Of a DNA stretch of 64,000 bases, positions 4,274 to 51,461 are shown piece after piece (the first letter of the stretch is position 1; the number at the start of each line of letters is the position of its first letter). Location: the NCBI RefSeq assembly GCF_003704095.1, contig NW_020847569.1, positions 310,001 through 374,000 on the forward strand, in the 5' to 3' direction. A program made the position numbers and the translations under genes. A model generated the notes under the pieces. That model was given only the letters and a program-made list of their open reading frames with translations, was not told the DNA's origin and did no database searches. The DNA comes from Pocillopora damicornis (Eukaryota).

Positions 4274-6812
4274 GATAGATAGATAGATAAGGTTTACAAA
4301 CGCGAAATTTCCAGCTTACTAAATTACAACTAATTAATTAATTTCCTAATTAAAAACTGTTACAGAATGACAAAATTACAAGCATGCGTCGAATTCCTAT
4401 GTAAAATAAGAGACAAGTTAATATCTAACTATCACCTACGATAAACGTAACTTAAGAGAAAGCTATTCTTGCATCTTTCAGTTTTACAACTCGGACGAAT
4501 AAATGTTCTTTGTTCTCTCAGATAGTAGCCGGGTTGGTATTTGCTTGGAAATAGTTTATGAAGACTGTGAGATTGATTTGCATATATTTCATTGAACAAC
4601 TTTGCTGCGATTGCCTCTCTTCTATCATACAGCGTTAAAAGTCCAGATATTTCCAGAGCCTTGGTATACGAAAGCTCGGGATAAATAATCTTCATAGCAC
4701 GTTTTTGAAGTCTTTCTAGGTCTTCGCTTAAATAACTTGGAATAACCGAATGCATGTAATGTAAAATATAAGAAGCTCTTTTGTGGCGACATGCGATCTC
4801 TTCAACTGTCTTAGAAAATATAGCCTTGTAGAAACCTTCCTAACTAGCTCTAACACATGGGCATTCCATTTTAAATCACTACTTTTATTGAGTCCTAATA
4901 ATTTTATACTTTTCACGGTCTCAAGGGTCTGACGGTTAACCCAGATAGGATCAAATTCTGGTTCGTTTTTTGCGAAGCTAATCCTAAGCTCTTTACATTT
5001 CCTTTCGTTTAACTGAAAACCATCTTCCCTTGCTTGTATTGCGAGATCGTCTACCATTTGCTGAATACAGTTCTCTTGGCCTTTAACCTCTGAAATTGTG
5101 GTATCATCAACATATTTGTAACGAATGTAACGCCATTCGGAGAAGCAATCCTCGGCCAGTTTAACTCTCTGTCTTCTATCCGATAAAAAGTCAACAATCC
5201 AGCATAATATGTGGTTCGGAATATCGTAATCTAAGAGTTTACCCACTAAGATGTTGAGATCAATAAGATCGAACGCTTTACGGAAATCAAATAGAACCAC
5301 CCTAATCACGGCCGAATTCCCATCGGAGCTGACGTGCCAGTTATGGATCATGCTAACAAGTGCGTGCGTAGTGCATGATTTAGGTATTGTCCTATATTGT
5401 CTTTTGTCGATTTTCTTTAACACGGCAGGTATCACAAATTCATGAACAATGTAATCTTCTGCAATCTTGGAAAGGATGGGCGTAAGGGAGATAGGGCGAA
5501 GGTGCTTATTGATGTCTTGGATAGGTCTTTGCTTGGGGACAGGGACGATATCTGCCTCTTTCCAAGATAAGGGCAAACGGCCTTCACGAAGGGAGGCATT
5601 CATGATATCCATGATGGATGGCGCCAAAAGATCCGCATTCTCCTTTAAGAGCCATCCGGGGATACCGTCCGGTCCTTGTGCCTTAGCTGGATTAATAGAG
5701 CATAACTTTCTAAGGATAGAAAACGCTGATATTGGTGAGAAATCATCATTCATAGTTCTGCTCGAAGACACAAAATTGTCTCCCCTAAATAGATTGTGGG
5801 TAAGCGGTTCAAAAACCTCCATTGGGGCCAAGAAAGCGGTGTTGATGTGGCTTGCAAGGTCAGCTGCTGATAGACCACGAGCACCTTCTAAGTGATGAAC
5901 GGACTTTAGGACATTATCACGTGACCCCTCCATTCCACTAAGTTTCTTGATTTCGCCCCACTACTTAGCTGGGGAACATCCCTTTAGATGTTGCACTTTA
6001 CACTCGTAATACTTCGTACGACATCTTTTACGTTCTCGGTTAACAAGATTTCTCAGATGGTTAAACTCCGCTCAGTCTCCTCGGTTTAAGGCCACTTGTC
6101 GCTTTCGAATCAAGGTCTTAACGGTTGAATTTATCCATGGTGGTTCTGTTCGGTGGAAAATTTTGGGCTTCATCGGCGGGTAAGATAGAATCAAGGCCAG
6201 TTTTGATGATCGTTTGTAACATCGACACCTTTCCTTTGCAAGTGGTCATAGCTCTGATCATCGCCGCAGTAACATCGACTTCATATAAATACGTTTGCAT
6301 TGCAACACGATTACTTGGTCGTAATTCCCTTGAAATAACAGTTTGTATTGTTTGCGATGTTTTAACCCTTTGCTTTGGCTGTACTTCAACTGAGCTATGA
6401 TCTGAAAGACCAAAAGCGGGACGTTCAACCGGGGTGTCGTAGTAATCCTGGAGGTTGGTAAGAATCTTGTCGAGAGTGTTTTGCCCACGAGTAGGAAAAT
6501 GCACAATCTGCTTCAGTTTGAAGTTTGATTTGCGCCTTGGATCGTTCAGATGGTTAAGGTCACCGAGTACTAGAAAACCGCAATTTTAGTATTTAGACTC
6601 CAAGTCCATTAAACACTTAGTCAAATAGTCCAACATCATAGAATTTGTTGCTTTTGGTGGATGATAAACAACACCAGCAATAATACTTGAGATGCCCCTT
6701 GGGAGACGAGTCGGGCGCATTTTAATCCACAATACCTCAAAAGAACATTTTTCGTCCTCGGGATCCTCCAGAACAGTAAAAGGGATTGATGATTTTATAT
6801 ACATGCACACCT
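4274..6812 (-). mobile_element. 5'-truncated, inactivated non-LTR retrotransposon (CR1/L2-group LINE) with APE endonuclease and reverse transcriptase remnants
   Basis: Endonuclease fragments VCMYIK, EVLWIK, GVVYHPP, PTRGQNTLDKILTN and GLSDH (6118-6810). RT motifs KAQGPDGIP, LRPISLT, DFRKAFD and KYVDDTT (4728-5933). C-terminal LERLQKRA..TERCKNSF (4432-4755). Several stops and frameshifts. (TATC)n tail at about 4274-4289. Confidence 0.93.
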
Positions 6813-7628: not shown

Positions 7629-10600
7629 TTACTGAACAAATATATATCCCATGACTGCGACATTTCTGTTTCCGTTGTCTGCTGTGTGTGCTGCCACGTT
7701 TCCACAGGTGTTGGCACCCGGTGCTGTACCAAAACCGATTCTAGAATCACAGCTTTCGCAGTCATTTTGGTCGTTACCAAGGATGCCAATTCTTGCCTTA
7801 GCTTGGTTACCTCGCGGGCTGATTGTATTAAACCCTTCTTTATTACAATTAAGTTGCAAGGAGCCCTCGGAACCGAGAAGCGACTTCCATGCATCACGAC
7901 CAAGTGACGTATTACGATATTCCCCGTCGGCAATCAATGAGTGCAAAGATTCAGCCGTCTTGTTCATCAACATAAAGTTTACTTGTCCGCCGGTTTTCAT
8001 ACCAAGGCAGATCTTAGTAAAGTTTGTCTTCCAGTAAGTCGGTAGCTTGGTCTCTTGGTCATCTAACCCTGTCATCCCCGCCTGAATGTTCAATCCGGTC
8101 TTATTGCTCCAGATCTCAGAATCATAATTGAAGGTGTTCTGCAAAATAATGGTAATATTGTAAGTTAAAAAAAAATAGGTTTTGTAATGGAAGATTACAC
8201 GAGTTTCCATCTTTCGATTATCATTTCACCTTAGATCCATTTATCTTCATAACCAGTGTCCAACCACCGTCTCCACACAAACCAAGACTCGTCGTGTGAC
8301 AGTAAACTAAAATTTTGGTTGATCCAAACTTCAGAGGGAAGGATTGGTTAATGACAGGACTGAAAAATAAGAACGTTTCCTTTAATAGAAATCCCTATCT
8401 TTGGTGTGATAAATAGGATCCAAAGGTGATTTTAATAACTTTTCAGAGACAATGAAGAAGTGTGCTATAAGCATTTACTTACCCAAAGTACCGTTGCGAA
8501 GTGCAATGTTTAATATTTTGTCGATTTCTCAAATGTTTCCATTAACTATTGTGTTTCGTTCACCTCGAGAGTCCAACGAGCAATGGCTTGCCATAAGTTC
8601 GATAACATATTTAGAGATAGCACAAGTTGTTACTGAGTTTTAAGTCCCCTTAAAAGATTGAGATCATGGCGCTGGAGATTGATTTGCCCTCAGATTGCAA
8701 ATTAACTTGCTCGTCCACCTATGCTATCGCTGTCAACTTAAGTTGCACTCTTCAAAACATTTCGAAAGACGTTGAGAGAATTACTATAAACTACAGCGAA
8801 TCTGAGGAATGCAACATATTAATTTTTCTAAGGTAGAAAAGCACCGAAATAGGAAGCAGTAACCAGACAAGGATGAAGAGGTGAATAATGTCTGTCAAAA
8901 CGCTATGCTTAACTGCCATCATGCATCCATGGCGTTGTGAAAGTCTGGAAAGATTAATGCTATCACTTTTACGTATTGCTTCGAACACTACTTACAAGCC
9001 CTTTCCTTTGTTGTCGTCGTTAATCTCCTTACAGTTCTCAGCAGCTTGGACAAATTGAACACATCAGAAAGTTGATTAGACGCTTAACTAAGTATGCATA
9101 TTGATGCCTACATACTGCTAATTCTCCAAGTCTTTCATTTAATTCGCGTCAATGTATTTTGCAAGTGTCGAAACTGTAATCATGATAACTGCGAAGCTAA
9201 AGCTCAGATCAAAATTACCGTGAAATTTTTCAAAATTCACGTGCACCCGAAACTCAATTTTTACTAAATACGAAATAAGTGATATTTGCACTGACCTTAT
9301 AAAGGAAAAGATATAGCGTCACAGAGGTAAAAACGGTCATCCCCGATAAATATTTTATCGTTCAACAAAAATTGTAGCTTTATGGTAATAAGTAAGAATA
9401 ATGCTGCCATTATATTCTACCCCATTTTCTGCTAATTATTAACTTAGCAGTTTACCCTACCCACAGCTATAGAGGAAAAAATTATAATGCGGTTTTCTGT
9501 AGAAATGATATTACCTTTTTCACATTTTTCTCCAACAAAACCTGGAGCACAAGCACATATGAATTTGCACCTCTCGTTCGCTAGATAGCAGGTCCGTCCG
9601 TTTTTGCACGGGTTAGAACAGCAGGGATACTTGAAAAAGGGGAAAGTACCATGTATTTTTAGTCTTTTCTATACATGAAAGTCATTAACAATAGCCTCAT
9701 AGCATTTAGACGTTTTCCATTTGTTTTTTACGCTATTATACTTTCACATCATATGGCAAACCTTTCTTAAAGTTTCGTTGATCTCTGTGACGTGTGTGTT
9801 TGTTCTATTCAGTGCAGACTTGAGCTGATTCAAATATGAATCGAGCTTTTCTACCTGAAAGAAAAAGATGAAAGATTAAATGTAAGGAAAATCTCGTTCG
9901 TTCGTTCATTTAGCTGATTGGGTGTTACTTGCTTTGTCGCTTTGATTATTACGTGGGCTTTCTATGGTAGACTGCGTTACAAATTTGGTTGAGTGTCGGT
10001 GTAGTCAGAAATGGAAATTAACCACGCGCTTTTTTTGTCAGTTAAGTTAAGCCCTTTTGACTTGGAGTTACTCTGACTCGGATGGATGACCGCATATAAT
10101 ATCTCATGTTGTTTATTTTTTTTCCTGTCTTAATTTTTTGATTTTATTCCTGAATCTTGAAGAGTCACCACTAGATTTGTCATATTCTACCTAAAACCAG
10201 ATTCACTGCAAATAACGACCAATGCATCCTGCGTCAACACCTCCAGGAGTCTTGTTCCGTGACGAATTCTAAAATCTCTACAATCACTAATATAATGTAA
10301 TAACTTCAAACCTCATTAACAAAGGATGAATTGACTGCTGCTAGTGTTTTCCTTGTTTCTTTTTCAGACGTCATGAGTAATTTCTTTGAATTGTCCAAAT
10401 CGTTTCGAACAGAGCTAAGTTCTGCATCAGTCTATGCAGAGAAAATACAAAACTTATTTAGTAAGTAAAGATTTCGAAGGTTAAACTTACTCGTCTGGAA
10501 CTTGATCAATCTCATCGAGTACTTGATTGAATGATGATCCGATCAACGTAAGTCGAGAAAATTAGCCCTACAACTTACTTATCTTTGATCGTCTAGCTGG

Positions 10601-13600
10601 TAAAAGGAAAAGTCTTTAAAAGTTAAATGGAACAGTCTTATCCCCGTTATTGGAAAGAACTTCAATATTAAATTTAATATTTAAAAAAAACTCGCATTCA
10701 AACAAAGATTGCATCACTTTGATCACACTTTACTTTTCTGTTGTTCATTGTTTCTATACATTAAAAAAAAGCCTTCTGAATTCGTTACGGTATAATACGG
10801 CAATATCCGGAAACATTAATCATAGGCGAGAAAATTCTCAATATTGCTCACGATTATGAAAAGAGTCGGTGCAGTAGATCTCACTCAGATATCGGAGCTT
10901 CAAAAATACTAAAAAGTCTCATCATAATTGCTCACTACGCCGTTAGATGCAAAAGTAGAACTCAAAACCACCGCTTGTATGGACCGATAATGCCAACATC
11001 GCAATGTTAATTCATTCCAAAGTGACATTTGATACGAATCCGTCTCACCTCCAATAAAGTGCTGTTAACTTCGTTAACGCCAACGTTTGTCCTTTTTAAG
11101 TAAGTCGTCAACTGAGACAAGGCAGCATCAAGGATATTCAGCTGAGTAAAGAAAAATTGTGAACGATATTTATTAGGTATGGCATTGGTTCGTTTCGAAG
11201 GAATAACCCTTACCCAGACTTTTTTCTAAATACTTTCGTCCTTTTAAAACCTTAAGAAAATCAACATGTCAGCCAAATCCGAAGGGAAACTTTTTAATTT
11301 CCTTTAGCAGAAAGCTTCAAATCCCAGTTTCATTTTCAAAGTTGCACAGCACATTATTTTAGGGTCCGTGACGCAGACAATCGCAGTAAATTAATTTTTC
11401 TAAAAATTTAAGAAGTCAAAAGGGAAAAGCAAAGATGAGCGATTTATCTTCTTCTTCCGGCAATGACACATACTGCCCTGGCATTCAGATCATGAGTATC
11501 CAAAAACTATATATTAAATCAACAGCTTAGACAAACCAACCTATATCACACGAGTAAAGAAGTGAAATAAATCTTAGAATACTGACCTTTAGTGTCTTAG
11601 TTGTGTTAACTGCATCCAAGGCTACTTTTGCATCTGCATCAGAAGCCATTAGTTGAATCCTTGTGCTGTTCGCATCATTTCGTATGGTGTCTAACCATGC
11701 CTTGGTCTGAGGGAAGAAGACTCATGCATTAATCTGAATAACTATGGATTCACCATACGTATGGAGTCATCATTTGTGATTCACCAATTCCGATTCAACT
11801 CAAATTGCTCTTCATTTTTGTGAATATTTCATTAACAGTAGACTTAATTTGGAAAAAAGTAAATTCAATTCATCCTCTCTTTCATACTGTTCTTTTCCTT
11901 TTAGACCTTACGAAAATCCTATCTTTCTACAACTGAGAAAAAAAATTTCGGACATTTTTCATGGTTTTCGGTCTAGTGTTTCAGACTTTGAACAAATTAC
12001 CGTGAGTGTGGTCAAGGAAACAACAAAATGCTCTTCTTTACAAGAAAAATTTCTAATGAGTGATGAAGAAGCCATTTCCATAAAATAATCATGTTTCTTA
12101 CATTTATCATTATATGTGATTATTAAATGGTAATTTTTTACCATTGCATGTATGTTTCAAATCATCTCACATCTTAAAATTGTTGACACTTCTAAAACTG
12201 TTGACTTTCAAATCTTTAAATTTCTGTAAAGATTTTACAAGTTCATATGGCATGCAAGATAATGTAAACTCCTGTTAAAGAATGATAAGCTGTGTAAATT
12301 CAAGACAAATTGGGGTAAGTGTAATCTTGCAGCTCACCTGCGAGTGGAACGTATGGTTGCCTAAGCATTTGAATCGTTTCATCTTTTTTGTGTGTGAATA
12401 AGTTCCCCTACCTTTTCACTTAAGTTGTTGTGTTCTTCTTGAAGGTAATCCAAGGATAAACGGGTACTGTTTAACTCGGCCTCTTTCTCTATCTAAAAAC
12501 ACACAGCGAAATTTACAATAACAACTTTCATGAACTTGGCAGTTTGCAACGCATTCGTCGTTTAAGTACTTCTTATTAACCGAGTTTGAGGTCCGCACTG
12601 TAAAGTACGGACCGCTGTTTTTTGGCCGCATGGAAAAAATGGCGCTCCGTAATTTGGAATGGATAGAGGTGAGATGAATCAATTTGTCTAAATGTGAACT
12701 TTTTTTCATTCTATTTACAGGCTACTCTGGGAAAGCTGAGACAAATTTTCTGACATCATTAAATTTTACAAGTGCGGATGGTTTGTTGCTTCTAAACAAA
12801 TTTTGTCCGAGGTGGTAAAATTTTTAAACGTGCGGCCGACTAAATTTTTCCTGACAAAGCCGCGTATTACCAGGCAGGCGATAATTTGTTGGAGAACTCG
12901 CGTATATTTAAAACTTTCAAACGACTTCAGATGAATCCTGACTATAGGAGTTTAATATCCATTGGCAAATTTCGCCGGCTGGTCTTTTGAGCAGATCAGG
13001 CGCTGACGGAATTTGACAGCTTGAAATACGGGTACAACAGAAGAGACAAAAATTTGTCCATTGATATTCTTGCGACAATTCTAGTTTTCTTTGCTAGTAA
13101 AGGTAATATAGACCCTAAGGTGGGATTTTTTGGCAGTTACATTACGCGTCTCGCTCGTGTCAGCCTCGTTTTCTTGCTGTGAACGATTCTCCCTGTGGGG
13201 CTCTTGTCTCACTAATTCCTGCTCTTTCTAGGCTAAAATGTCGGGTCTACTTATGCTAGGTTAAAACTATGGCCAGATTCAGGCTCTATTGCGGCCAAAC
13301 AATTTTGTGCAAATTTTGTGTAAACGCTGCAACAAGAGGTCCTTTTATATGATCACTAATTAGCGGCCTTTTTTCTGACGAGGTGTAAATAGGCGTCAGG
13401 AAGCAAACCGCCATCGTCACGATTTAAAGGAGCGTGGGCGGAGTTAATATGCCAAGCCTCCAAGATCACCCCTGATGAAGGCACTAGACAGGAGTGTCGA
13501 AATGTTGGGTCTATGAATCGTAACTTCTTCGGTTACATTCATTAAATCTGCAAACCAGAGTGGCGTCAAACTATGTCTGATTGTCCAACTGGTTGCCGTG

Positions 13601-14774
13601 TTAACTTTAATATATATTAACAAAGAATTGAAAAACAAAAAGGCCCCGCATCCCCAGGGGAAACTCGAGAGCTAGTGAAGACCTAAGGTTAATTTTTCAT
13701 CGCAAATCACTTTTTAAAATTTGTGTTCAATGCCTCTCACCAAATCTCGCTGAAAGCGCGTCATGTTCTCTTCCAAGGAACTAATCTTGATTACATCAGC
13801 AGACAGCTTTTCAACGGACGTAGTGAGTGCTGAAAAAAATAAAAGATTCCTTTCAGGCAATTCGTTTGAAATTGAATGAAAGAAGAGCTATGAAATTGCC
13901 AATCAAAAATATCTTCGTCAGAAAAAATGAATTCGCCTAAATTTGAATCAAAATCGATTCCTCCTCGATTCAAAAGTTACAGCATTTATCCAAAATTGTT
14001 ATTACCAGTATTATCATTATTATCAGCATTGTTATATATTTATTGTCTATAGTCAGGCCACCCGGTGCGAAGAGTTTAAAAACAAATCATCAGTTTTCAT
14101 AGAGGAAAAGAGTTATTACTTGCGGATATTTTGCGAGTTCCGCAGTATTTTTCCGAGCCCTGTAAGGATGATGAAATACAACAGCGACGATTAGATGTCA
14201 AACCATTGAATGAAGGATTTCTTATTCCACTACCATTTCATTTTGTAGTCTTTTAACTTATAATTTTAGAACTAGTTTGCAGACTGCGTGACATACGATT
14301 GTCAGACCATTGAAATGTGTTTTATGACTAACAAAAAAACTCTGATGCACTTAGTTGCTTTTAAGGTCAAACCTGAGAAAAGGAATAAAACCAAATTTTG
14401 GATGTTTTAGTGCGGCCATTTTGTTGCTTCGCTTTCAAATTATTATACTAACATATGTCTACTTGCTAACCTTCAGTTTTGGAGCAATCACATTTTTCAC
14501 CGAAATTCCCCCACAGCGACAGCAAACTCAGAATAATGGCGACGATGGAAAGTAAACACGCAAAAAAGAACAAGGGCAAATATCTCCCGTTCGATCGCCT
14601 TGCCGGGTGTGGTTTCTCCTCATGCGTTTCGTAAAGTGCGCTCCCTGGATCACTTGCTGCTCCAAAATTGGCCTCTTTTAAACTAATTTGTTTTAGTCCC
14701 AGCGACTCATTCGTGGCAGAATCGTCTCCGACATAACCTTTGTTTATAACGATTTTTCGAGATGAAGTAGGCAT
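7629..14774 (-). CDS. Gene A: type II transmembrane protein with coiled-coil stalk, EGF and USOMP5-like (fibrinogen-related) C-terminal domain, about 567 aa
   Basis: 11 phase-compatible GT-AG exons: 14774-14471 (MPTSS..tail, TM, CDC), 13829-13741, 12492-12412, 11706-11587, 11141-11049, 10431-10312, 9854-9762, 9629-9515 (EGF), 9044-8996 (AENCKEI), 8359-8230 ([14 protein letters not shown]), 8138-7629. The total is 1704 nt, open, and exon sizes match gene B. Domain name is from recall of coral protein annotations. Confidence 0.85.
13468..13510 (+). ncRNA. Minimal type I hammerhead ribozyme motif in a probable Penelope-like pseudo-LTR fragment (about 13444-13620)
   Basis: ACCC-CTGATGA-A-GGCACT(agacagg)AGTGTC-GAAA-TG-TT-GGGT: intact core, 6-bp helix II, 4-bp helix I and a loopless helix III. 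Confidence 0.65.
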
Positions 14775-17008: not shown

Positions 17009-20000
17009 TTACTGAACAAATACATATCCCATGGCTATGACATTTTTGTCACCATTGTCTGCTTGCAATGCTGCCACATTTCCACAGGTGTTGGAACCCG
17101 GGGCTGTACCAAAACCGATTCTTGAATCACAGCTACTGCAGTCATTTTGGTCGTTACCAAGGATGCCAATTCTTGCCCTAGGGCGCACAGCAGACGGTGT
17201 GCGTGCATTAAACCCTTCTTTATTGCAATTCAGTTGTAAGGAGCCGTTGGAACCAAGAAGCGACTTCCATGCATCACGACCAAGCGACGTATTACGATAT
17301 TCCCCGTCAGCAATTAATGAGTGCAAAGATTCAGCCGTCTTGTTAATCAAGATAAATTTTAATTCTTCGCCATTTTTCATACCAAGGCAGATCTTGGTAA
17401 AGTTTGTCTTCCAGTAAGTCGGTAGCTTAGTCTCTTGCTCATCAAACCCTGTCATTCCCCCCTGAATGTTCAATCCGGTCTCATTGCTCCAGATCTCAGA
17501 GTCATAATGGAAGGTGTTCTACAGAATGAGGATAGCATTATCAATTAACAACTATACTTTGCGATAAGAGATTACCCAATGTCAATTATCAATATTTTCA
17601 TTTTTTTTCATACGTTCGTTAGTTTCATTAATTTAAAACAATTTTCGTTCATTGCTCAAAAACTGAGTACAAATTTATTCTGGTAATCAGATACTATATC
17701 GTCTGTAGGCGAACCTCCGAGAAAATAAATCATTGTGCGCCGATGAAATTTATAAATCACCCGTTAGACACTTGAGTTTCTAGCAAGATGATCTAGAGAT
17801 GCAACATCTGTGATAACCATTTGTGTAGGGTGCAGAGACATCTCAGAAGCTTCTTATTTGTTAATGGCGAGAATAGAATCTAAAACGATTGTTATTCTAA
17901 CTTGAAAACCAAAATTTCTAAAAGAGTGACTTAAATCTCGTACATATTTATCAAACTATTCACAAGCGGCTTTCTTTTAAATTGATCAATACAAATACAT
18001 AAAAAGTGTAAAACTTAGCCGAGGAAAAAAACAAAACATTCCATTGCGTGGTAAATTCCTGTAATAGTTTTCTTCCGAGTTCCCTTTTTTCTTTTTCTTT
18101 TTGCTTATTTATTGATTCGTTTTGGCCTCTGTTTAATTTATTACTATAATGATTGAAAACTTGAATAAATTCTGTGCACCTTAGATCCATTGATCTTCAT
18201 AACCAGTGTCCAACCACCGTCTCCACACGGACCAAGACTCGTCACGTGACAATAGACTGAAATTGTATCTGATCCAAGCTTCAGAGGGAAGGATTGGTTA
18301 CTGACAGAGCTAGAAAAAGACGAATTTTGCTTTCAAAAGATATTGCTCTCAGAGGTATATTGTGGAGAATTTAAACTCGTAGGAATTGCATTGAACACTA
18401 CTTACATGCCCTTATCATCACTGTCATCGTTGATCTCCTTGCAGCTCTCAGCAGCTCAGGCAAAGTGAACATACCAGAAAGATTTATTAGACTCGAAGCT
18501 TAAGATGCATAATGATGCGTATACTTTAAGATTTGAGAGATAGCCTTACTTATTTAAGGATGGCCGGAAATGGTTGTCTAGAAACTGCTTTAGTAATGCT
18601 TATCTAGATAAACATTTGCTAGCAGCCAGAGGGCGAAAGTGCCCATTGAGATTCACATGTGTACCAGTTAATAATTAACACGTGCATAAAGTTGGCTGAC
18701 TTCATATGGGAAGCGAAAAAGCGTAAGAAACTGTCGTTCTCATGATTCTATTATCAACTGAAGAAAGTTATAGCTTTGCAATCATACCTTTGAAAATTGC
18801 TACCATCATATTACACTACATTTTTATGAATAACTAGTTTGCCTAGTTTACCTTACGCACATCTTTAAGCCAGAAAAAGTAATTGAGCAGTTTGTTGTAG
18901 AATTAATCTTACCTTTCTCACATATTTCTCCAACGAAACCTGGAGCACAAGCACATATGAATTTGCCCCTCTTGTTTCCTGGATAGCAGGTCGCTCCATT
19001 CTTGCATGGGTTGGAATAGCAGGGAAACTTGAAAAAATGAGGAAAAGTTGCTATAGAGAGTTCCTAATAACAATTATGAATAATGACAGATTTCTTCAGC
19101 GCCATATTCATTGGCGAGTCATGGCGCTTTACAACACGTTGCGAGGGACTCTGGCTAGACTGAATTGAGTAGATTAAAATTTTTGAAGGAAATTTGGGCA
19201 GATGCCCCCAATTTTTAGAATTAATGCAAGACCACAAATCGGGGAGCTACATCCCCTACTCCTTGCTGACCAGTACAGGGAAGATGCAGGAGACGAGACC
19301 TACGGATTTTCATTCTTATCCGAGAAGACTAGCAAGTCTAAATGTCATTTCAAAGGCAGCACATTCTCCTCAGCTAAATTTAAGATGCTGGGTGTTGTTC
19401 CAGTCTGGGGCTTCAACCTTCGACCTTCCGCACGGCAGCTCAGCCCGGCACTTTACAATACTGGCCAGGCGGCGGTTACAACAAGTTTATTGCATTGTTG
19501 TATTTTGACATTATGACAAACCTTTCTCAAAGTCTCCTTCAGCTCCATGACGTCAGAGTTAGTTCGATTCAGTGTAGAATTTAGCTGATACAGAAACGTG
19601 CCGAGCTTTTCCAGCTGAAAGAATAAGAAGACTGTACAGTCTATGAGAAGAGATTCTGTTGGAAATTGTATTCTTACTTTGATCGGCTGATTGGTAACTT
19701 ACTTTGGTTGTTCGATTGTTGTTTGCTCTATTTGCCGGTTGGACGTCACGTACTTCTTTTTATTAATTATCTCGCGATGAATTCTTAGATTTTTAACCAA
19801 CACCGAGATTAAAAAAAAAAAATTGCACCTCATACGCAAAGGATGTGTTGACGGCTTTTAGTGTCTGTCTTGTGTCATTGTCAGACGTCATGAGTTGGAA
19901 CTTTGATTGGTCCAAGTCTTTTCGTAAAGAGCTGACTCCTGAATCAGTCTATGCAGGGGAAAGACAAACTAATTGTTTCATCTTTTAAGAATTAGCGATT

Positions 20001-23000
20001 ATGTAATACCCATTTAACGTTAGAACATATGGGAATCTAATGTCAACAAATGCATAAAAACACTCTGGAGAAGGATCTAACTGTCAATCGTTCGCCGAGT
20101 TGGATATAATCTCGAATCGCGCGCATCAATTTTTGAAAAGAATGAGGTTTAAAAAATTAGATCAGAGTGAAACAGCGCCGACAACAAATTAACAAAAGAT
20201 TGAAAACCAAAGAGGTGCTATCTCAACAACCGAAGCGCGAGAGTCCACAAACGCTACAGTAGAGCTTAATGCAATCTATTTCTGAAACATGAATTAAATG
20301 CTCCTCACCGAATCTCGCTGAAGGCTGGTTATTTTCTCTTCCAAGGATTTTATCTTGCCTACATCAGTTATCAGTTTGTCAACGGACGCAGACAACGCTA
20401 AAAGAAAGAAAATTATCAAACACTCCCTCTGGGAAGTTCATTTAATTTAGCACAAATGAAGAGATATCTAATGAATTAGTTGCCAGGAATCGGATCCTTG
20501 TGTTTGCGGCAAAAGTTTTGGGATCGCCACGGGGCAAACATTGCAACTCGCTAGAAAAAAATGCATGCATATACAAGGAAGCGTAAGTTTTTGTTTGAAC
20601 AACCATGATCTATGTGGTAAAATCTACTAACTTTTCTCCATGCGCAATAGTTATTGTGAAATTGACAACGTGTAATGATCTCGGTTTATTGATATATTTT
20701 ATAATATATTTCACTGCAATTCTGAAAAAAAACCTTACACTTCCCTCGTATAAACATCATCTACATCCACTTATGATAAAAGTGCGATAAAAAAAGCGTT
20801 GATCTCTCTCTAAAATCGTTTTCGAACGTCGAAACAACCTTTCGCCATATATTTCCTTCTAGCAACTTGCAATGCTTGCCCAATGGCCATCCCAAAAATA
20901 TTTGCGCAAACACAAGGATCCGAATACTGGCAACTCATTCATTTTCACTCAAAAAGAGCATGCAATTCATTTAATTTATTTCTAAAGAAGAGATACAAGA
21001 ATTTAAGTTTTCATTCAAAATATCTTCGTAATGGAATACAAATTTTATTCCTCTTCGATTCAGAATTTTAGAAATGCATTTGATATCATTATGACTAACG
21101 CCTGTACCGCTAATTAAAGATTTCAGACTTCCTCTAGACTTTCATTTCCGAGAGAAATTAACTTCGATAAAATTAACCATTGAAAGGCTTCTCATTAGAA
21201 CCAATTGTTTCCCTTTTTTCACTTTACATTTTTTGCGATCAGTTATGCAATTTTGCCCGGATTGAACGATCGAATGTGATTTGAAGCGAGTTGTGCGAAA
21301 TCATCGTCACGCAATATCAGAAGCCGTTGTGATTTGAAGCCCAAGTTTTAGTAAACACGAAAAAGGAGATAAGAAATGTTTAATTATGTCACATTCTGGT
21401 ATCAGATGTAACCAGTGAGGCTCTGCAAAAGGTGAACAGACTCTGAAAAACCAAGTTCGTTTTGACCTTCCCGCTCATACGTTTTTCTATAGTTTTCCCA
21501 AGCGCGCGAACGTTGCATTTTCCAAGCGTTTTCCCCACAGAATTACTAACGGTGAATGCCATGAAAACATGTTGCTTGTCCATTGTTTTCCTGCTCTATG
21601 GAAACAGAAGTAAACAGCTTGCATTGTTTTTTTGTAGACTGAAGGAAAGTATAATCGTCCTAATACTCGATGTCTACGCTGCACGAGAAAAACGAGCGAG
21701 TCAAAAAAATCATTATCTATCCGAAAGAGTTCACACCTCTAAAAATTATTTCATGTCAAATTTTGCCCATCGTTATGGTTTGAACCTTATTTAGGACAAT
21801 GGCCCTATTTTTCCCTAGCCTCGAGGACTTTTTCATCGGATGTTTATGTCAAGCTCAGAAGCTAAAGCTCAACTGCCTCAAATGACCCAAACGGCTCAAA
21901 TGACCCAATCGTTGTCAGTACTCTGAATATTAAACAAGCTATTCACTGGCGTTTTCATGAGGCAGGATCAAGAGCAGGAAATAATGATCACGATCGATGA
22001 ACATGTTGTTTTCATGGCGTTTCAGAAAACAAACTGTTCATTAGCGTTTCCATGGAGCAAGAATATAATGGACGAACATCATGTTTTCTTTACGTTCACG
22101 TTCGTGTGTCAAAACACTTGGAGAATTCAGCGCTCGTACGCTCACGAAAACTACAAAAAAACAATGCAAGCTGTTTACTACTGTTTCCATAGAGCAGGAA
22201 AACAATGGACAAGCAACACGTTTTCATGGCATTCACCGTTAGTAATTCTGTGGGGAAAATGCTTGGAAAATGCNNNNNNNNNNNNNNNNNNNNNNNNNNN
22301 NNNNNNNNNNNNNNNNNNNNNNNNNNNNNNNNNNNNNNNNNNNNNNNNNNNNNNNNNNNNNNNNNNNNNNNNNTTTTTCAACCCTTTTTGTTACCAATTA
22401 ACCAAAGTAGTATTCGCCTAGCTACATCAGCTCTTGATTATACAAGATAACTGAATTGCCTCAAATGACCTAATCGGCTCTAGTCGCCCAACTGCCTCAA
22501 ATGAGCTAATCAGTTCCAGTGNNNNNNNNNNNNNNNNNNNNNNNNNNNNNCAACCAGCTCAGATAACTGAATTGCCTCGAATGACCCAATCGGCTCCAGT
22601 GGCCTAACTGCCTCAAATGAGCTAATCAGTTCCAGTGACCCTACTGCCTCAAATGACCCAATCCACATAAATGACCCAATTAGCTCAACTGCCTCAAATG
22701 ACCCAAACGGCTCAAATGACCCAATCGTTGTCAATACACTGAATATTAAACAAGCTATTCACGGGCGTTTTCATGGAGCAGGATCAAGAGCAGGAAATAA
22801 CACAGGACGAAATTGCAAGAATCCGTAAACGGAAACGTGGCAGAAACATGTTAAACCGTTCTGGAAACACGACGGATAACCTGTGTTTCCGTTACCGGTT
22901 TCGTGACGTTTTCTCGCGTTTCCGTTGCTGCGTATACAACGGAACCGGACCACTTTTTGTGCATGTTAAACATAACGGAAACATGGAGTTGCATGTTTCC

Positions 23001-26000
23001 GCCACGTTTCAGAAATACGGAAACATATGATTTCGTCCTGTGTAATGATCACGATCGATGAACATGCTGTTTTCATGGCGTTCTGGAAAACAAACTATTC
23101 ATTAGCGTTTCCATGGAGCAAGAATATAATCGACGAACATCATGTTTTCTTTACGTTCACCATTAATAATTGTGCGTGAAAACGCTTGGAAAATGCAGCG
23201 CTCGCACGCTCACGAAAACTACAGAAAAACATTCTGATAAACATTGCAAGCTGTTCACTACCGTTTCCATAGAGCGGGAAAAACAATGGACGAGCAACAC
23301 GTTTTCATGGCCTTCACTGTTCGTGATTCTGTGTGAAAACTCTTGGAAAATGCACCGTTCGCGCGCTTGGGAAAACTATAGAAAAACGTTCAGGAAACAA
23401 GCTGTACACTAGCGTTTTCGTGGAGCAGGAAAACAATCAACAAACATCATCTTTTCATTGCATTCACCGTTGATAACTCTGTGGGAAAACGCTTGGAAAA
23501 TGCAGCGTTCGCGCGCTCGGGAAAACTATAGAAAAACGTTCAGGAAAACAAGCTGTACACCAGCGTTTTCGTGGAGCAGGAAAACAATCGACAAATATCA
23601 TGTTTTCATGACATTAACCGTCAGTAATTTGTAGCAAAACACTGGGAAAATTTAGCGTTCGCGCACACAGGAAAACTATAGAAAAACTTTCAAGAAAACA
23701 GGCTATTCATTGGCATTGCAGGGTAACATGTGATGAACTGCGTGTTTTTCTTGAGTTTTACCGAGGGTGAACAGTAAATTTGCCATCCGTTTTCAGATAT
23801 CAGAAAACATTAGTATGATGTTGAATTTTTCAGTCTTTCACCATTTCGGAAAATTAACGATCTGTGTCAAAGCGCTATTTAAATTAGGCAATGCGCCATG
23901 TTCAATGAGCTACTATGTTCTAAGTCTAATTCGTCCTTAACTTGCCCCGTGCGCTCGAACTGCTAATTTGACCCTGGAAAAACACTTAACCCTCAAATAA
24001 GATCTGAGTACTTGCGTCATGTTAATAAGGAGAGGACTGAGTGGAGGATACACATCTGCCTGCATGCATTTATATATGAATCCTCTGATTACGTGCAATT
24101 AGTTGCTTCAAATTTAGTCCGAACCATTCAGGCACAGTTCACAGCTCGTTCAAAACGATTTTGTTTATATAGATGATGCCATAATGTTTTTCGTGAATCG
24201 TCTAGTAACACTGGTCAAATATTTTAATCGTGGCAAACCGGATCAACCTTGAGATTTCACCATTCCACATTATCGGATGGTCACCAAAGTTAAAATAATG
24301 GAAGCAATGATTATGATGAGAAACAAAATTTGTTAATTTCGTGATAGGCGTCTGCCTCGATAGCGATTCATGAGTCCTCTTTTCACGTGGAGTTATATTC
24401 CTTAAAGTCAGTCTGTACCACAGTGGCGCAGATCACATGTGCACGGTGGCTGGAAAAGTTTATAGATATGGCAGGATCCATATTTTATACTTTAATCTGA
24501 TCGGTAGCTACAGCCTATACTTTTGTGTGTAAAGTAGACCTTCCTGTCAACTTCCCCATCTTCCATTGCGGGATTAGCACCACTTAACCCTTTAACCCCA
24601 AAGATCTGATTGTTAATTCTCCCTTCAAGGTGCTTCACATTTCCTTATGAATTAGCTTAGAAGAATCAGGGAAACAACTTTTTCCTGATAGTTTTGGGTA
24701 TTCTCATTACCTATTTCCTGGATAATGAATGGATTTTGAAGGGAGAAGTAAGAGGTTAATCGCCTCTGGGAGTCAAAGTGTTAAGCAGCCTGACGTGGCT
24801 TTACCACATTTAGAACTATCTACGCAGGTTGTTGGAGTTCTAGCTCCTACAGCCTTCACAAAACGGTACCATCCTCGAAGAGCTGTGTGTCACAGAACGC
24901 TGCACCAAGTAGCGGTGTATCGTCAATGGTATTTCTATTGTCGTCACTCTGTTTCATAACAGGGACCGACTACAAATTTAAGAATTAATCTTAAAATAGT
25001 TGTAATCATTGCTATTGAGAATAAATTTTTGAAACGTCATTTAAGTTTGATAGTTTATTATTGCCCAGGATATGTTGATAACAAGTTAATTGCATCGCTT
25101 AGTTTTGTCTCAGAGATACCAATTCTTTGAGATTTCTTGAAAAGATCTTTCCTATCAAATAATTGACTAAAGGGAGAATTGATCAACGAACTGTTTCTCT
25201 CAGAAATTCTTCTTGATAAATTCAAGATGAAATCTCATTTAAAAAGCCAATCAAACCTAGATTAGTATATTTAAAAGGTGTCGGAAGGCGATTGGTGTAT
25301 CACCAATTGGTGTATCAAAAAAGGAGACAGGTATCTCAAAAAATCATCCTCTCACTTCCTAAAATTGGGAAATCCCTCCGAAGATTACACCCGAAAGGAA
25401 CAGTGGAATCGGTTTTGTTTTACTGAGGTCTGAAAAGTGAGAATTCATTGTCTCATGTAACCTTAAACTGATTACATGAAGAGAATTTGAATAGCAGGCG
25501 ATAGGAGGGTATGGCCTTTGGGAAAGTCATGTAGATTGATAACTGCAGCAGAGACACGTAAACTTATGATTACTTAGACGTGCTAATTGTCTTAATTAGG
25601 TTCAGTGTCGGTTATAACAAAAGCAACCAGAGTAACAGATCACACCTTCTCTGTTACCGGTCACATACACACAAATAAGCTTGAAAAGGTTATTTAATCA
25701 GGTTTCAACTGGTCGTCATTTCGGACCTCTTTCTGGTGTTGTTTTGTTTTTGTTAGAAAGGCTTGTAGAAGAGCTACTAGCGTAGAAATCATTGAGATTT
25801 TACCCATTTCACTCAACACGCTTTCCTACAAGATTCACCTGTTAAGGTATGATTTGGTCGAAATAAGGAATACTATACTCCTAAAATTTAAACTATTTTA
25901 TTAAACAACTTGTAATGATTCTTTCTCAGGAGCTACTCCTCTAGGCGATATACTCCTACAGGCAATACTCCTTTAAGCTTACTTGAGCCCACTACAGATT

Positions 26001-29000
26001 ATAACTTAGCTCTTTACTAACGTCAAAGACTCACTCTTGCCTCAAAATACGCAATCTTTGAAGTATATCGCAGTACTAAGCAATATTTTGGTAGAGCTTC
26101 TTAGTATTGTTTTTGTATTTTCTGACAAAAGAACTACTACTCCTAGCTTAGTCCTTATATACATTCCCAATGTATTTTAAAATATTTGGTTATTCGAATC
26201 TTACAACACAACTATTGTGGTAGAAATAGATCATAACTACATGAACTAATAGAATGTTTTAGTTTTCCAAGCTATGTCATCAGAAAGTTCGATTATCAAT
26301 GTCTTAGTGACTAAAAATTCTAGAAATTGTTTTCAGACTCCATCCATAACGCACCTAACACGATTTAGAAATCCTTGTAAATGATGATGCATGACTAAAC
26401 ATAATAAACAATTGGCCTATAATCACGGATCGCCGTGACCCATCGGTGAAGGCTTTTCGACAGAATAACAACTACATGTAAAGAAGGCTTGGGCATCAAA
26501 AGCTGCTTTAGTTTGTAACGACCTGAGTAAACAACAAGAGTTCAAAACGTTTAGTAATAAGCAAAATGCAATGCTCAAAGTTGTGCTTAAGACTTACTTA
26601 GTGAAGCACTTGATTGGAATAGATAGAGATGAAATTAAGATTATTTGGAAGCTTACTAATGCCCATGGTTCTTGACATTAGCTGAGGGAGGGCTGGGGGG
26701 GTTTGTTCTAATACTCGGATAAAAACAGTTGTTCAGTCGCCTCTAATGATGATTTCCGCTTAGGCTAGAGAAACGTCAGTCACTATTACTACCACCTCGA
26801 GTCACAACTTCTCATGAGTACTCTTACGTGAAAGATCAAACTACGCGGTCCAATGGTACTCCTCTATTCAAAATTCTCACTGTTTAATATTAACCATAAA
26901 CAGTGGATCATGTGAAATTCATTAAGTCCCTGTTATACATTAATGTACTTGTGTGAATCCTTTCGCTGTGCAGAATGACTTGCTTACAGCATTCAGTCTG
27001 TGCCACAGTAGCGCAGATCACAAGCAGGTGGCTTTAGTAGTTTGTAAATAAAGTAGGATCCGCAGTCTTTCACATTTATGTCAATTGATTTCTTGCAACA
27101 TTCTCTACCTCTGGTAAAGCAGACCCCGGNNNNNNNNNNNNNNNNNNNNNNNNNNNNNNNNNNNNNNNNNNNNNNNNNNNNNNNNNNNNNNNNNNNNNNN
27201 NNNNNNNNNNNNNNNNNNNNNNNNNNNNNTTAGGCGGGTTAACCCACCTTGACACGTTTACATGGCAAATTGTCACCCCGGCTGACCGGGCTACTCTACC
27301 TGGCAGACCGGGCAACCCACCCAGGCGGGTCACCCCACCTATCATGTAAACGTGATCAAAAGAAATTTTATGGTCAGGCGGGTTACCTCACCTAGGCGGG
27401 TTACCTTACCTACCTGGGGTCCTCCACCTCCATGTAAACTGGCCCTAAAGGGAGAATTGATCAACGAACCTGTTTCTCTCAGAAATTCATCTTGATAAAT
27501 TCAAGATGAAAGCTCATTTAAAAAGCCAATCAAAGCTAGATAATATTTATTATATTTAAAAAGTGCCGGAAGGGAATTGATGTATCAAAAAATGAGACAG
27601 GTATCTCAAAAAATCAACTCCCTCCGAAGATTATTGATCATTCACCCGAAGGAACAGTGGAATCGGTTTATTTTTACTGACATCTGAAAAGTGAGAATTC
27701 ATTGTCTCATGTAACCTTAAACTGGTTACATGTAGAGAATTTGAATAGCAGGCGATAAGAGGGTTTGGCCTTTGGGAAAGTCATGTAGACTGATAAGTGC
27801 GACAGAGACACCTTCTCCGTTACCGGTCACATACACACAAATAAGCTCGAAAAGGTTATTAAATCAGATTTTAAATGGTCGTCATTTCGGACCTCTTTCT
27901 GGCGTTGGTTTGTTTTTGTTAGAAAGGCTTGTATAAGAGCTACTAACGTAGACATCATTGATATTTCACACATTTCACCCAACACGCTTTCCTGCAAGAT
28001 TCACCTGTTCAGGTATGATTAAGGAATACTATACTCCTACAATTTAAACTATGGGTGACTTGAAATGATTCTTTCTCAGGAGCCACTCCTATAGGCGATA
28101 CATTAATTGTCCTTTAAGCTTACTTTAGCCCACCAGAGACCATAACTTAACTCTCTACTGACATCAAAGACTCACTCTTGCTTCAAAATCTCCCCAAAAT
28201 ACGCAATCTTTGAAGTATATCGCAGTAATGAGCAATATTTTGGTAGAGCCTCTTTCTCATCACCTGAATAATAAATGGATTTTGTAGGAAGAAGTAACAG
28301 GTTAATCGCCTGTGGGAGTCAAAGGGTTAAACAGCGCAGGTTGGCTTTACCACATTTATAACTATCCANNNNNNNNNNNNNNNNNNNNNNNNNNNNNNNN
28401 NNNNNNNNNNNNNNNNNNNNNNNNNNNNNNNNNNNNNNNNNNNNNNNNNNNNNNNNNNNNNNNNNNNNGTGTCTCAAGCAAAATCGACCGGACCGCTCTT
28501 ACAGAGACACTCTCTTAAGGTTAAAATAGCAGAATCTTATTTGCCAGAGCAGCAATACATGTTTTACTTTGCAAGAGTGAATTGGTACTCAGTTCATCTG
28601 GAACGTTTTTCACATGGAGTGCCAGTGGAAATCTGGTGTAACTCATTTGATCTGTTTGGCCAAGCATGTTTCATGCCAGTTCAGAGAATTAAATCCAACT
28701 GTTCTTTAGGAGAAAAAGTTTACAAACAAGAAAATGTTCTCGGAGTAACAAGTTAGACTGATATAAGGCTGCATTGCACTGATTTTTTATTTTGAGTTTA
28801 AAAACTACTGACGTACAAGTTATTAAAATGCAATGATAAAATATAATGATTATGTCTTCCACGTCGTTGTATTTTGCATATGCTTAGCTCATATACTGCA
28901 TGCGGAGAGACTCAGCAAAATTCTATTTCTGATATAACTACCCATTAACCACAAATTACCAAACTGGTACAAATGAGCCATGGGACCAGCAATACCAAAC

Positions 29001-51063: not shown

Positions 51064-51152
51064 CGTTTTTATCCACTGCAGCGCAGCTTATAAACGATCC
51101 TGACAAGTTCAGGGCCTTGGAAGAGGACATAACTAGTCTGGGATGAGGCTTA
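51064..51152 (+). pseudogene. Decayed homologue of the 89-nt exon 2 of genes A and B, upstream of gene D
   Basis: Reads AFLSTAAQLINDPDKFRALEEDITSLG*GL versus [30 protein letters not shown]. In-frame TGA at 51144-51146, donor GCGAGG, and no AG at the homologous acceptor. Confidence 0.65.
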
Positions 51153-51461
51153 GCGAGGAATATACATATTTTGCAGTTCCACAGGCGATTAGAGTTAAAA
51201 TAATATTGAACAATGGGCAATGGGAATAGACTTCCCGGCGTTAGTTACATGATGACTCCTTTACAAGTTTTTATGATGTGATAATTTTCAATCGGCAATA
51301 TTTTTCCGTTATTTCATGAAGGATGCTTTCAAAGCACGTGTGTTCACTTTCTTGGGGGGGGGGGGGGAAAGCAAATATATATGATTTTGAGGTTAATCAG
51401 TTAGGGCCATTTTTAGGATTAGTGCAAATTCTTTGGGTAAAAAACTCTCCAAAAATGTCTT

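What the first reader, a model, noticed from the sequence alone, without database searches (positions are those of the whole stretch)
14471..14774. Type II receptor layout with conserved cytoplasmic tyrosine motifs
The A and B tails (about 65 aa) are divergent but keep NxGY (INKGY / LNEGY), a YET motif (ALYETH / PIYETL) and KPHPARRSN before the TM, plus CDC/CDCC just outside it. This resembles FIBCD1, class A scavenger receptors and type II C-type lectins (disulfide-linked oligomer, glycosylated coiled stalk, distal head). B has a complete YxxL while A has YxxH, suggesting paired receptors with different endocytic or signalling output (inference).
Basis: partly seen in the sequence, partly recalled or inferred. 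Interest (0 to 1): 0.7.

Follow-up and report, generated by a model that had tools for sequence, protein, structure and literature searches.

The report
Coral membrane-anchored intelectin-fold receptor pair
Two neighbouring coral genes encode membrane-anchored proteins (splicing shown for one) with a stalk and a head predicted to fold like the microbe-binding lectin intelectin; their inner tyrosine signals come and go between relatives, so they are likely uptake receptors rather than an on/off signalling pair.

Summary
The motifs are all present as described. The window is Pocillopora damicornis-type coral DNA, and 14471-14774 is exon 1 of gene A. Public contigs join this exon through stalk and EGF exons to the head, so the anchor is spliced to the ectodomain. 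The head belongs to the USOMP5-like family (149 matches in this genome). Its predicted fold is closest to intelectins (Z 12.2-12.7), not to FIBCD1 (Z 7.1). The tail-TM-CxC exon and one stalk exon are shared with collagen-bearing type II genes of the same genome. A and B are therefore likely exon-shuffled chimeras: a scavenger-receptor-like front end on a normally secreted head. The tyrosine claim is weaker than stated. The tails are 55% identical, so drift alone would keep both tyrosines 7-22% of the time. The Stylophora orthologue of B has lost the YETL tyrosine, another homologue has NEGF, and KPHPARRSN is limited to A and B. No ITAM, ITIM or charged TM residue is present. The better-supported signal is a family-wide NxxY/F sorting-type motif near residue 11. 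Best reading: endocytic or recycling lectin-type receptors, ligand unknown; classical paired signalling receptors are unlikely.

The parts
14471..14774 (-). Gene A exon 1: 64-aa cytoplasmic tail, signal-anchor TM, CxC; phase-1 intron follows
   Evidence: 100% identical to RefSeq LOC113685321 X1/X2; joint 14471-13829 in 4 of 4 runs
14733..14750 (-). A: VINKGY, hydrophobic-x-N-x-x-Y sorting-type motif (N at residue 11)
   Evidence: sequence; same motif class in 10 of 16 related exon-1 tails
14622..14639 (-). A: ALYETH, incomplete YxxPhi (His in place of Leu)
   Evidence: sequence; Leu in 4 of 5 close homologues; no difference listed at these codons in 4 of 4 runs covering them
14589..14615 (-). 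[10 protein letters not shown], basic juxtamembrane segment
   Evidence: identical only in A and B among 5 close homologues
14499..14582 (-). A: uncharged run, residues 65-92, the only TM-level hydrophobic segment
   Evidence: maximum elsewhere 0.78 Kyte-Doolittle
14484..14492 (-). A: CDC; both Cys invariant in 7 of 7 aligned exon-1 relatives
   Evidence: residues 94-97 lie in the predicted trimer interface
13741..13829 (-). A exon 2, stalk
12412..12492 (-). A exon 3, stalk cassette (27 aa), alternatively used
   Evidence: joint 13741-12492 in X7; skipped by joint 13741-10431 in X1 and X4
11587..11706 (-). A exon 4, stalk cassette (40 aa); repeat of exon 6; homologous to a stalk exon of collagen-type gene L036
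   Evidence: RefSeq X1
11049..11141 (-). A exon 5, stalk cassette (31 aa); repeat of exon 7
   Evidence: RefSeq X1
10312..10431 (-). A exon 6, stalk (40 aa)
9762..9854 (-). A exon 7, stalk (31 aa); phase-0 intron follows, the likely graft point
   Evidence: graft point is inference
9515..9629 (-). A exon 8, EGF-like module (AAG acceptor)
   Evidence: joint 9762-9629 in 4 of 4 runs, joint 9515-9044 in 2 of 4; EGF call from the Cys spacing
8996..9044 (-). A exon 9, start of head
8230..8359 (-). A exon 10, head N-terminal subdomain (YC..GGGW)
7629..8138 (-). A exon 11, USOMP5-like head, intelectin-type fold, stop codon
32085..32391 (-). Gene B exon 1: tail with LNEGY (32350-32364) and YETL (32236-32247), TM, CDCC (32095-32106)
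   Evidence: splicing not tested with reads
17009..20397 (-). Gene B exons 2-8 (20397-20309, 19948-19829, 19614-19522, 19027-18913, 18454-18406, 18309-18180, 17518-17009): short stalk, EGF, head; 470 aa open with exon 1
   Evidence: model by homology to A and GT-AG ends

Best explanation
Genes A and B encode type II membrane proteins (splicing shown for A, predicted for B) with a short inner tail, a predicted trimeric coiled stalk, an EGF module and a head predicted to have the intelectin fold; they likely act as uptake and recycling lectin-type receptors, and likely arose when a scavenger-receptor-like front end was spliced onto a normally secreted head. Shown: exon structure and splicing of A, alternative stalk length, homology of exon 1 and a stalk exon to collagen-bearing type II genes, and homology of the head to the USOMP5-like family. 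Predicted: intelectin-type fold and parallel trimer. Inferred: N-in/C-out topology without cleavage; CxC disulfides between chains; three heads binding a surface ligand, probably a glycan, in a probably calcium-dependent way; the N-terminal NxxY/F motif engaging PTB/FERM sorting adaptors such as SNX17 without needing phosphorylation; and YETL in B adding an AP-2-type internalisation signal that A (YETH) has weakened. The ligand is unknown.
For: Splicing: run X1 shows 7 of 7 GT-AG joints of the short path from exon 1 to the head; the exon 1-2 joint is absent from the DNA-type run X19. Topology: one hydrophobic segment after 64 residues; sequons 15 of 16 (A) and 11 of 11 (B) on the C-terminal side. 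Stalk: 3.55-3.6-residue periodicity, 0 of 2000 shuffles as strong. Trimer of A 60-229: score 0.49, best of 3 controls 0.00, runs agree in at least 93% of contacts, pLDDT at least 77; the mark was reached by 21 of 30 solved pairs and 0 of 23 single chains in microbes, and by 17 of 29 (animals 7 of 16) and 0 of 30 in eukaryotes. Fold of the Stylophora orthologue's head: five intelectin-type chains at Z 12.2-12.7, rmsd 3.7-3.8, 189-195 aligned; next 7.6; FIBCD1 7.1. A head profile finds 5 solved sequences, 4 of them intelectin-type. Front end: a profile of 7 collagen/coil-type TM-CxC segments scores A 25.6 and B 30.3 bits against a top of 10.4 in 300 block-shuffled controls; A exon 4 against the L036 stalk exon, 0 of 2000 shuffles; Pfam Collagen above cut-off at 4 of 4 collagen exons scanned. 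Motif: hydrophobic-x-N-x-x-Y/F in 10 of 16 tails against 1.1 shuffled, and 7 of 12 against 0.85 after removing near copies, with Tyr and Phe interchanged. SNX17 binds NxxY/F (PMC11589680, passages), and an SNX17 FERM_C match above cut-off is in this genome.
Against: No experiment on ligand, topology or trafficking. The orthologue of B in Stylophora (P0012) has neither complete motif (HEGY, AHEKL), so the receptor can persist without them. Tail dN/dS of 0.72 is weak constraint. NxGY lacks the Pro of the NPxF/Y seen in 5 of 16 relatives. The motif pattern was chosen after seeing the sequences and the tails are kin, so the shuffle counts overstate significance. The intelectin ligand-site pattern N-x-E-H is replaced by E/S-x-C-D in a weak (-3.7 bit) alignment, so diol binding cannot be transferred. 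No contig spans the whole transcript, contigs also cover several 3' introns, and RefSeq models X1 and X2 end headless in retained introns. Only three copies were modelled, this is unlike the tool's two-copy calibration, and trimeric coils are solved in numbers, so the pass may be from memory. The family's named member was isolated from coral skeleton (PMC6824150, passages), which points to a matrix role. One origin of the anchored heads has support 99/88 in a 42-row tree but only 50 for the nearest node in another.
Confidence: 0.5

Rival explanations
1. Cell-surface adhesion or skeletal-matrix anchor, or precursor of a shed matrix protein: the head binds matrix glycans or mineral, and the tail motifs only set polarity or turnover.
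For: The head family is named after a skeleton-derived protein. Usomp5 isoforms change during skeletal regeneration (PMC12019164, passage). A long, variable, heavily glycosylated stalk suits a spacer.
Against: The nearest solved folds are microbial-glycan lectins.
Confidence: 0.2
2. The tail tyrosines of A and B are inherited remnants under little selection; the genes are young duplicates in a family that turns over, and the YETH/YETL difference has no function.
For: Tail dN/dS 0.72 and a 7-22% neutral chance of keeping both Tyr. Loss in P0012. Decayed copies in the window (gene C) and on C804.
Against: YE at the same place in 4 of 5 close homologues plus L004 at about 29% identity, with Glu in 5 of 5. 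NxxY/F with N at residue 9-11 in 8 of 16 tails. Both frames are open, and overall dN/dS is 0.55.
Confidence: 0.18
3. Paired signalling receptors: B's DPIYETL is phosphorylated and recruits Syk or another SH2 protein as a hemITAM in a trimer, while A shares the ligand and gives no or another signal.
For: Heads 82% identical while tails are 54%. B matches (D/E)xxYxxL. The heads look homogenised after the duplication, since B groups with P0012 by front end (97) but with A by head.
Against: 0 of 6 tails have an ITAM, ITIM or ITSM, and the hemITAM-like match is in 1 of 6. No charged TM residue. B's own orthologue lacks the Tyr. Tyr-to-Phe exchange at the distal motif argues against phosphorylation there.
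Confidence: 0.12

Closest known systems
USOMP5-like ('uncharacterized skeletal organic matrix protein 5-like') family of corals
   Same: Head 50-75% identical to the 120 listed proteins, several so named; fibrinogen-related subdomains already noted in sponge homologues (PMC6824150, passages).
   Different: Most listed members are secreted or carry PAN/EGF N-termini; only 2 of 120 have this tail-TM-CxC front end, both from Stylophora.
Intelectins / X-type lectins (human intelectin-1, Xenopus XEEL, lamprey serum lectin)
   Same: Best structural match of the head (Z 12.2-12.7) and 4 of 5 sequence-profile matches.
   Different: 12-15% identity; the head is about 65 residues shorter; the ligand-site N-x-E-H pattern is apparently not kept; intelectins are described as soluble, and the placozoan ones lack coiled coils (PMC6321704, PMC9316650, passages).
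FIBCD1
   Same: Type II membrane protein with a C-terminal fibrinogen-superfamily head that internalises ligand (PMC6888979, passages); the closest analogue in how it may work.
   Different: Canonical FReD, tetramer and S1 acetyl site in FIBCD1; Z only 7.1 here; an EGF module is present here; likely independent origin.
Class A scavenger receptors and the collagen-bearing type II genes of this genome (L036-L039)
   Same: Tail, TM, CxC, phase-1 intron and coiled stalk; exon 1 and a stalk exon are homologous to the coral collagen-type genes.
   Different: No collagen, SRCR or CTLD in A or B. Homology to vertebrate SR-A was not tested.

Membership tests
USOMP5-like family | C-terminal head homologous to USOMP5-like proteins | tested here: met
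   170 proteins at E <= 1e-10, 120 listed, 50-75% identity
USOMP5-like family | Presence in the skeleton organic matrix | not testable with these tools
   needs proteomics
Intelectin (X-type lectin) | Intelectin-type fold of the head | tested here: met
   Z 12.2-12.7 against 7.6 for the next family, on the model of orthologue P0012
Intelectin (X-type lectin) | Ligand calcium / diol site N-x-E-H (role of these residues recalled) | tested here: inconclusive
   weak alignment puts E/S-x-C-D there; Asp in 37 of 39 family rows; no residue-level structural alignment available
Intelectin (X-type lectin) | Soluble protein with N-terminal signal peptide | tested here: not met
   64-residue tail before a 26-28-residue uncharged anchor
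FIBCD1 | Type II TM with stalk and C-terminal fibrinogen-superfamily head | tested here: met
FIBCD1 | Canonical ficolin-type FReD (Pfam Fibrinogen_C) | tested here: not met
   no Fibrinogen_C match for the head exons or whole P0012 and P0010; Z 7.1 to 4m7f
FIBCD1 | Tetramer and S1 acetyl-binding site | not tested
   only a three-copy model was run
Class A scavenger receptor | Type II TM, tail and coiled stalk | tested here: met
Class A scavenger receptor | Collagen domain | tested here: not met
   longest G-X-Y run is 3 triplets in A and in B; definition from PMC5119243 (passages)
Class A scavenger receptor | C-terminal SRCR or CTLD | tested here: not met
   no such Pfam match; other fold
Type II C-type lectin | C-type lectin domain | tested here: not met
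Paired activating/inhibitory receptors | Closely similar ectodomains from linked genes | tested here: met
   head exon 138 of 169 identical; tandem genes
Paired activating/inhibitory receptors | ITIM/ITSM in one partner | tested here: not met
   0 of 6 tails
Paired activating/inhibitory receptors | ITAM, or a charged TM residue for an adaptor, in the other | tested here: not met
   no ITAM; TM runs free of D/E/K/R/H; a hemITAM-like string in B only

The most novel reading that the evidence does not exclude
Pocilloporid corals made a membrane-spanning intelectin-fold receptor by exon shuffling: a scavenger-type tail, anchor and modular trimeric stalk grafted onto one branch of a secreted lectin family of about a hundred members. 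The large 'skeletal matrix protein 5' family would then be the coral intelectins, and A and B their cell-surface uptake receptors for microbes or symbionts, with reach tuned by stalk cassette exons and trafficking tuned by gain and loss of tail motifs.
Probability: 0.3. Interest if true: 0.65.

Novelty: new variant of a known kind. Interest (0 to 1): 0.42.

Why it matters
Which host receptors corals use to recognise and take up microbes and symbionts is an open question, and the passages I saw of surveys of coral pattern-recognition receptors did not mention intelectin or FIBCD1 (PMC8260672: 0 hits each). The result ties a very large unannotated coral family to the intelectin fold and singles out its few membrane-anchored members, which current annotation cuts short (RefSeq ends gene A at 199-242 aa). 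These are direct candidates for glycan-array and uptake tests. The tyrosine motifs themselves are ordinary trafficking-type signals.

Tried and rejected
Pfam and NCBIfam gave no family above cut-off for exon 1 or the head exons. The head exon alone matched no solved sequence (0 hits). The Atlas gave no hit at 0.9 or more for tail, TM and stalk (best 0.82). Word-based searches with exon 1 found only the two RefSeq isoforms among 240 candidates and only P0010 among 7997, which is weak evidence of absence. The representative search was meant for exon 1, but the profile took in the head (443 positions), so only 4 of the 150 listed of 1627 hits matched exon 1 (P0010, P0001, P0151, P0255). The range outside Pocilloporidae is therefore poorly tested. 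No listed sequencing run is on record as RNA; spliced joints are the only sign that they are. Joints into A exons 4 and 5 were not among the rows shown (24 hidden). Splicing of B was not tested with reads. The full 128-row head tree finished only as a quick tree; searches used 42 rows (8 window and locus heads plus 34 of the 120 proteins). L035/L042 was left out of the 16 tails as a different layout (N-terminal signal peptide), and the C804 pseudogene was left out for its stops. The ectodomains of L003, L006 and L043 could not be assigned. An upstream in-frame ATG in A (27 more residues) was rejected as the start, since B has none and RefSeq and homologues begin at the same Met. Earlier-findings look-ups returned nothing. 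The intelectin-1 structure paper was not held. Ten literature searches showed no paper, by listing or by the passages read, on a membrane-anchored USOMP5-like or intelectin-fold coral protein. Most subscription papers are not searched, and I did not read the supplements of PMC6824150 (fig. 1) or PMC9673494 (fig. S4, tables), which may already note the fold.

Full report
Observation. The stretch 14471-14774 on the minus strand is the first coding exon of a gene (A); its twin is 32085-32391 (B). Exon 1 of A is identical to RefSeq LOC113685321 of Pocillopora damicornis, whose two isoforms stop in the stalk at 199 and 242 aa. The tails are not very divergent: 34 of 62 aligned residues, 75% of bases, dN/dS 0.72. 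Neutral drift at 25-40% base difference keeps both tyrosines in 7-22% of simulations. The nine-residue identical run is rare under that model (0.4% or less) but arises in 7.6% of shuffles given the overall identity. A against B alone therefore says little about selection.

Anatomy. A has 11 coding exons giving 567 aa without a stop, and B has 8 giving 470 aa: tail, one uncharged segment of 26-28 residues, CxC, stalk, EGF-like module and a head of about 225 residues. Contigs of four public runs, guessed to be RNA, show GT-AG joints at the modelled places. The joint 14471-13829 is in 4 of 4 runs, 13741-10431 in 2 of 4, 13741-12492 in 1 of 4, 10312-9854 in 4 of 4 (printed as 9852-10310, cut +2), 9762-9629 in 4 of 4, 9515-9044 in 2 of 4, 8996-8359 in 4 of 4 and 8230-8138 in 4 of 4. 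Run X1 holds all 7 joints of a short form (469 aa, like B), though no single contig spans it, 24 joints were not shown, and contigs also cover several 3' introns. The DNA-type run X19 lacks the first joint. The second refuter, that the anchor is not spliced to the stalk, fails for A. B's splicing is modelled only; the predicted Stylophora proteins P0012 and P0010 also hold tail, TM, stalk and head in one chain, without the EGF module. Type II topology is inferred from the single hydrophobic segment and from 15 of 16 and 11 of 11 sequons lying on its C-terminal side. The charge difference across it is modest (4 against 2 in A, 4 against 3 in B).

Stalk and oligomer. Hydrophobic periodicity peaks at 3.55-3.6 residues, and 0 of 2000 shuffles reach it. 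A's stalk holds a 40+31-residue exon pair twice (0 of 2000 shuffles each); B holds it once. Three copies of A 60-229 scored 0.49 against a best control of 0.00, with at least 93% agreement between runs and pLDDT of at least 77. The mark was reached by 21 of 30 solved pairs and 0 of 23 single chains in microbes, and by 17 of 29 (animals 7 of 16) and 0 of 30 in eukaryotes. Residues 94-97 are in the interface. The job is unlike the two-copy calibration, the alignment was not used, the pass may be from memory of solved coils, and dimer or tetramer were not tried.

Head. It is 50-75% identical to 120 listed coral and unnamed proteins, several named USOMP5-like, and has 149 matches among 150 scored candidates in this genome, fragments and broken copies included. 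A model of the Stylophora orthologue P0012 (87-row alignment, head pLDDT mostly above 90) matches intelectin-1 best (Foldseek E 6.6e-4; Z 12.6, rmsd 3.7, 193 aligned among 48,161 chains). In the second look, five intelectin-type chains score Z 12.2-12.7, the next chain 7.6, and FIBCD1 7.1. A 39-row head profile finds 5 solved sequences, 4 of them intelectin-type, mainly over the N-terminal subdomain. A weak further stretch aligns XEEL's C-N-V-E-H with C-(E/S)-S-C-D here, the Asp being kept in 37 of 39 rows. That N, E and H form intelectin's ligand site is recalled, not from a call. The fold is thus intelectin-like while the ligand stays open. Fibrinogen-related subdomains in USOMP5 homologues were noted before (PMC6824150, passages); the passages read did not name intelectin.

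Front end. Searching the genome with exon 1 gave further exons of the same plan, a tail, a TM, G..CxC and a phase-1 donor. One (L004/L007) is followed by the same head. At four loci (L036-L039) stalk exons and a collagen exon follow (Pfam Collagen above cut-off, 4 of 4 such exons); their splicing was not tested, and two of these loci hold two candidate first exons. A profile of 7 such TM-CxC segments scores A 25.6 and B 30.3 bits against a top of 10.4 in 300 block-shuffled controls; L006 scored only 6.5. A's exon 4 matches a stalk exon of L036 (0 of 2000 shuffles), and exon 1 ends in the same GAAG|GTTAG in A, B and L036. I infer that a scavenger-type front end was joined, at the phase-0 intron after the stalk, to an EGF-plus-head unit of the secreted family. 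The six anchored heads fall on one side of a branch with three unassigned neighbours (support 94 with one further row; 99/88), but one search gives only 50 for the nearest node, so a single origin is compatible, not shown. Only 2 of 120 listed head proteins carry this front end, both from Stylophora.

The tyrosines. Among five close homologues (A, B, P0010, P0012, P0255) the proximal motif reads YETH, YETL, YETL, HEKL and YETL, and the distant L004 has YEDL. The distal motif reads NKGY, NEGY, NKGY, HEGY and [13 protein letters not shown] is in 2 of 5. P0012 groups with B (97) and is 66% identical to it over exon 1, so B's own orthologue lacks the YxxL tyrosine, and the first refuter is partly met. 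YETL is the likely ancestral state and A the one that changed; no difference at Tyr14, Tyr48 or His51 is listed in the four runs laid, where they cover it. None of 6 tails has an ITAM, ITIM or ITSM; B alone has DPIYETL. Across 16 first exons, hydrophobic-x-N-x-x-Y/F occurs in 10 (1.1 shuffled), in 7 of 12 after removing near copies (0.85), with N at residue 9-11 in 8 of 16 and a full NPxF/Y in 5 of 16. YxxPhi in general is not enriched (8 of 16 against 5.7, P 0.14), and YExPhi is enriched only before near copies are removed (5 of 16 against 0.57; 2 of 12 against 0.46, P 0.07). The patterns were chosen after inspection and the tails are kin, so these figures are generous. The Tyr/Phe interchange fits NxxY/F sorting motifs bound by the SNX17 FERM domain (PMC11589680, passages), and an SNX17 FERM_C match is in the genome.

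How it most likely works. The chain is inserted by a signal anchor (inferred) and trimerises through TM and stalk (predicted), probably locked by CxC (inferred). It holds three intelectin-fold heads away from the surface at a height set by cassette exons (splicing shown). Bound ligand is probably taken in and the receptor recycled through the NxxY motif, with YETL as a second, dispensable signal present in B and weakened in A (inferred; the AP-2 role of YxxPhi is own knowledge). I give this 0.5, a matrix or adhesion role 0.2, non-functional remnant motifs 0.18, and phospho-tyrosine paired signalling 0.12.

Known and new. It works most like FIBCD1, a type II fibrinogen-superfamily receptor that internalises ligand (PMC6888979, passages), but fails FIBCD1, class A scavenger receptor (PMC5119243, passages), C-type lectin and paired-receptor membership on tested features. 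It is a membrane-anchored variant of the USOMP5-like family. Placozoan intelectin-like genes are described as secreted and without coiled coils (PMC6321704, passages; PMC11452194, passages). Other papers seen as passages: PMC9673494, PMC10236652, PMC8260672, PMC12019164, PMC9316650; the rest only as search listings; no supplements were read. Ten searches showed no description of this layout in the held library.

Verdict. The feature is real and the receptor layout is confirmed for A. The 'conserved tyrosines, paired receptors' reading is only partly right. The more interesting result is the chimeric, intelectin-fold membrane receptor. New variant of a known kind, interest 0.42.

Noticed in passing
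window 10967-11778: An unspliced contig of run X1 joins 10966 to 11779, which would remove stalk exons 4 and 5, while X12 covers 10829-11078: a possible presence/absence allele for one stalk repeat.
   Followed up: partly
window 10580-10597 (-): An 18-base segment with good AG/GT ends and an in-frame stop lies between stalk exons 5 and 6; a possible poison exon, with no joint among the rows shown.
   Followed up: partly
window 9629, 9044, 19027, 18454 (-): The EGF exon and the next exon use uncommon AAG (A, B) or GAG (B) acceptors; contigs cover the neighbouring introns in A and RefSeq ends in retained introns, so headless forms may be made.
   Followed up: partly
window about 50800-59725 (+): Third paralogue C: stalk, EGF and head exons look intact, exon 1 and 2 equivalents look decayed (frame break, stop), and ILEI-like exons (PF15711 above cut-off at 55372-55725) lie between EGF and head.
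   Followed up: partly
window 45627-49135 (-): Gene D: apparent signal peptide, PAN-like, two EGF-like modules and the same head; the secreted form of the family, distant from A and B in the tree.
   Followed up: partly
L036-L040 (G000 C903, C4204, C1890, C2390): A family of type II genes with Tyr-rich tails (up to 6 Tyr, NPxY/F, YEDP, LYEPT), coiled stalk, collagen and a small Cys-rich C-terminal domain with no Pfam match above cut-off; scavenger-receptor-like and possibly undescribed.
   Followed up: partly
window exons 8138-7629 and 17518-17009: A and B are sisters by head but not by front end, and dS is lower in the last exon (0.20) than in tail and stalk (0.39-0.49): possible gene conversion of the head.
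   Followed up: partly
L026/L041 (G000 C804): Broken copies of this gene type with several stops, one close to Stylophora P0010.
   Followed up: partly
P0075, P0109: Two unnamed head-bearing proteins with a hydrophobic segment at residue 27-29 and no CxC front end, apart from A and B in the tree: perhaps a second, independent membrane anchoring.
   Followed up: no
window 4432-6585 (-): Fragmented reverse-transcriptase/endonuclease-like frames, by eye a LINE-type remnant; not scanned.
   Followed up: no
window 20398-32084: B intron 1 is 11.7 kb, with arrays of about 150-base repeats, shorter tandem repeats and five N gaps.
   Followed up: no
window 40172-41981 (-): Exons of another gene with a hydrophobic segment near its end (40172-40567), likely a type I membrane protein; not identified.
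   Followed up: no
L010/L011 (G000 C4306): Head exons in inverted duplicate around assembly gaps next to the L006 first exon; gene structure unresolved.
   Followed up: partly
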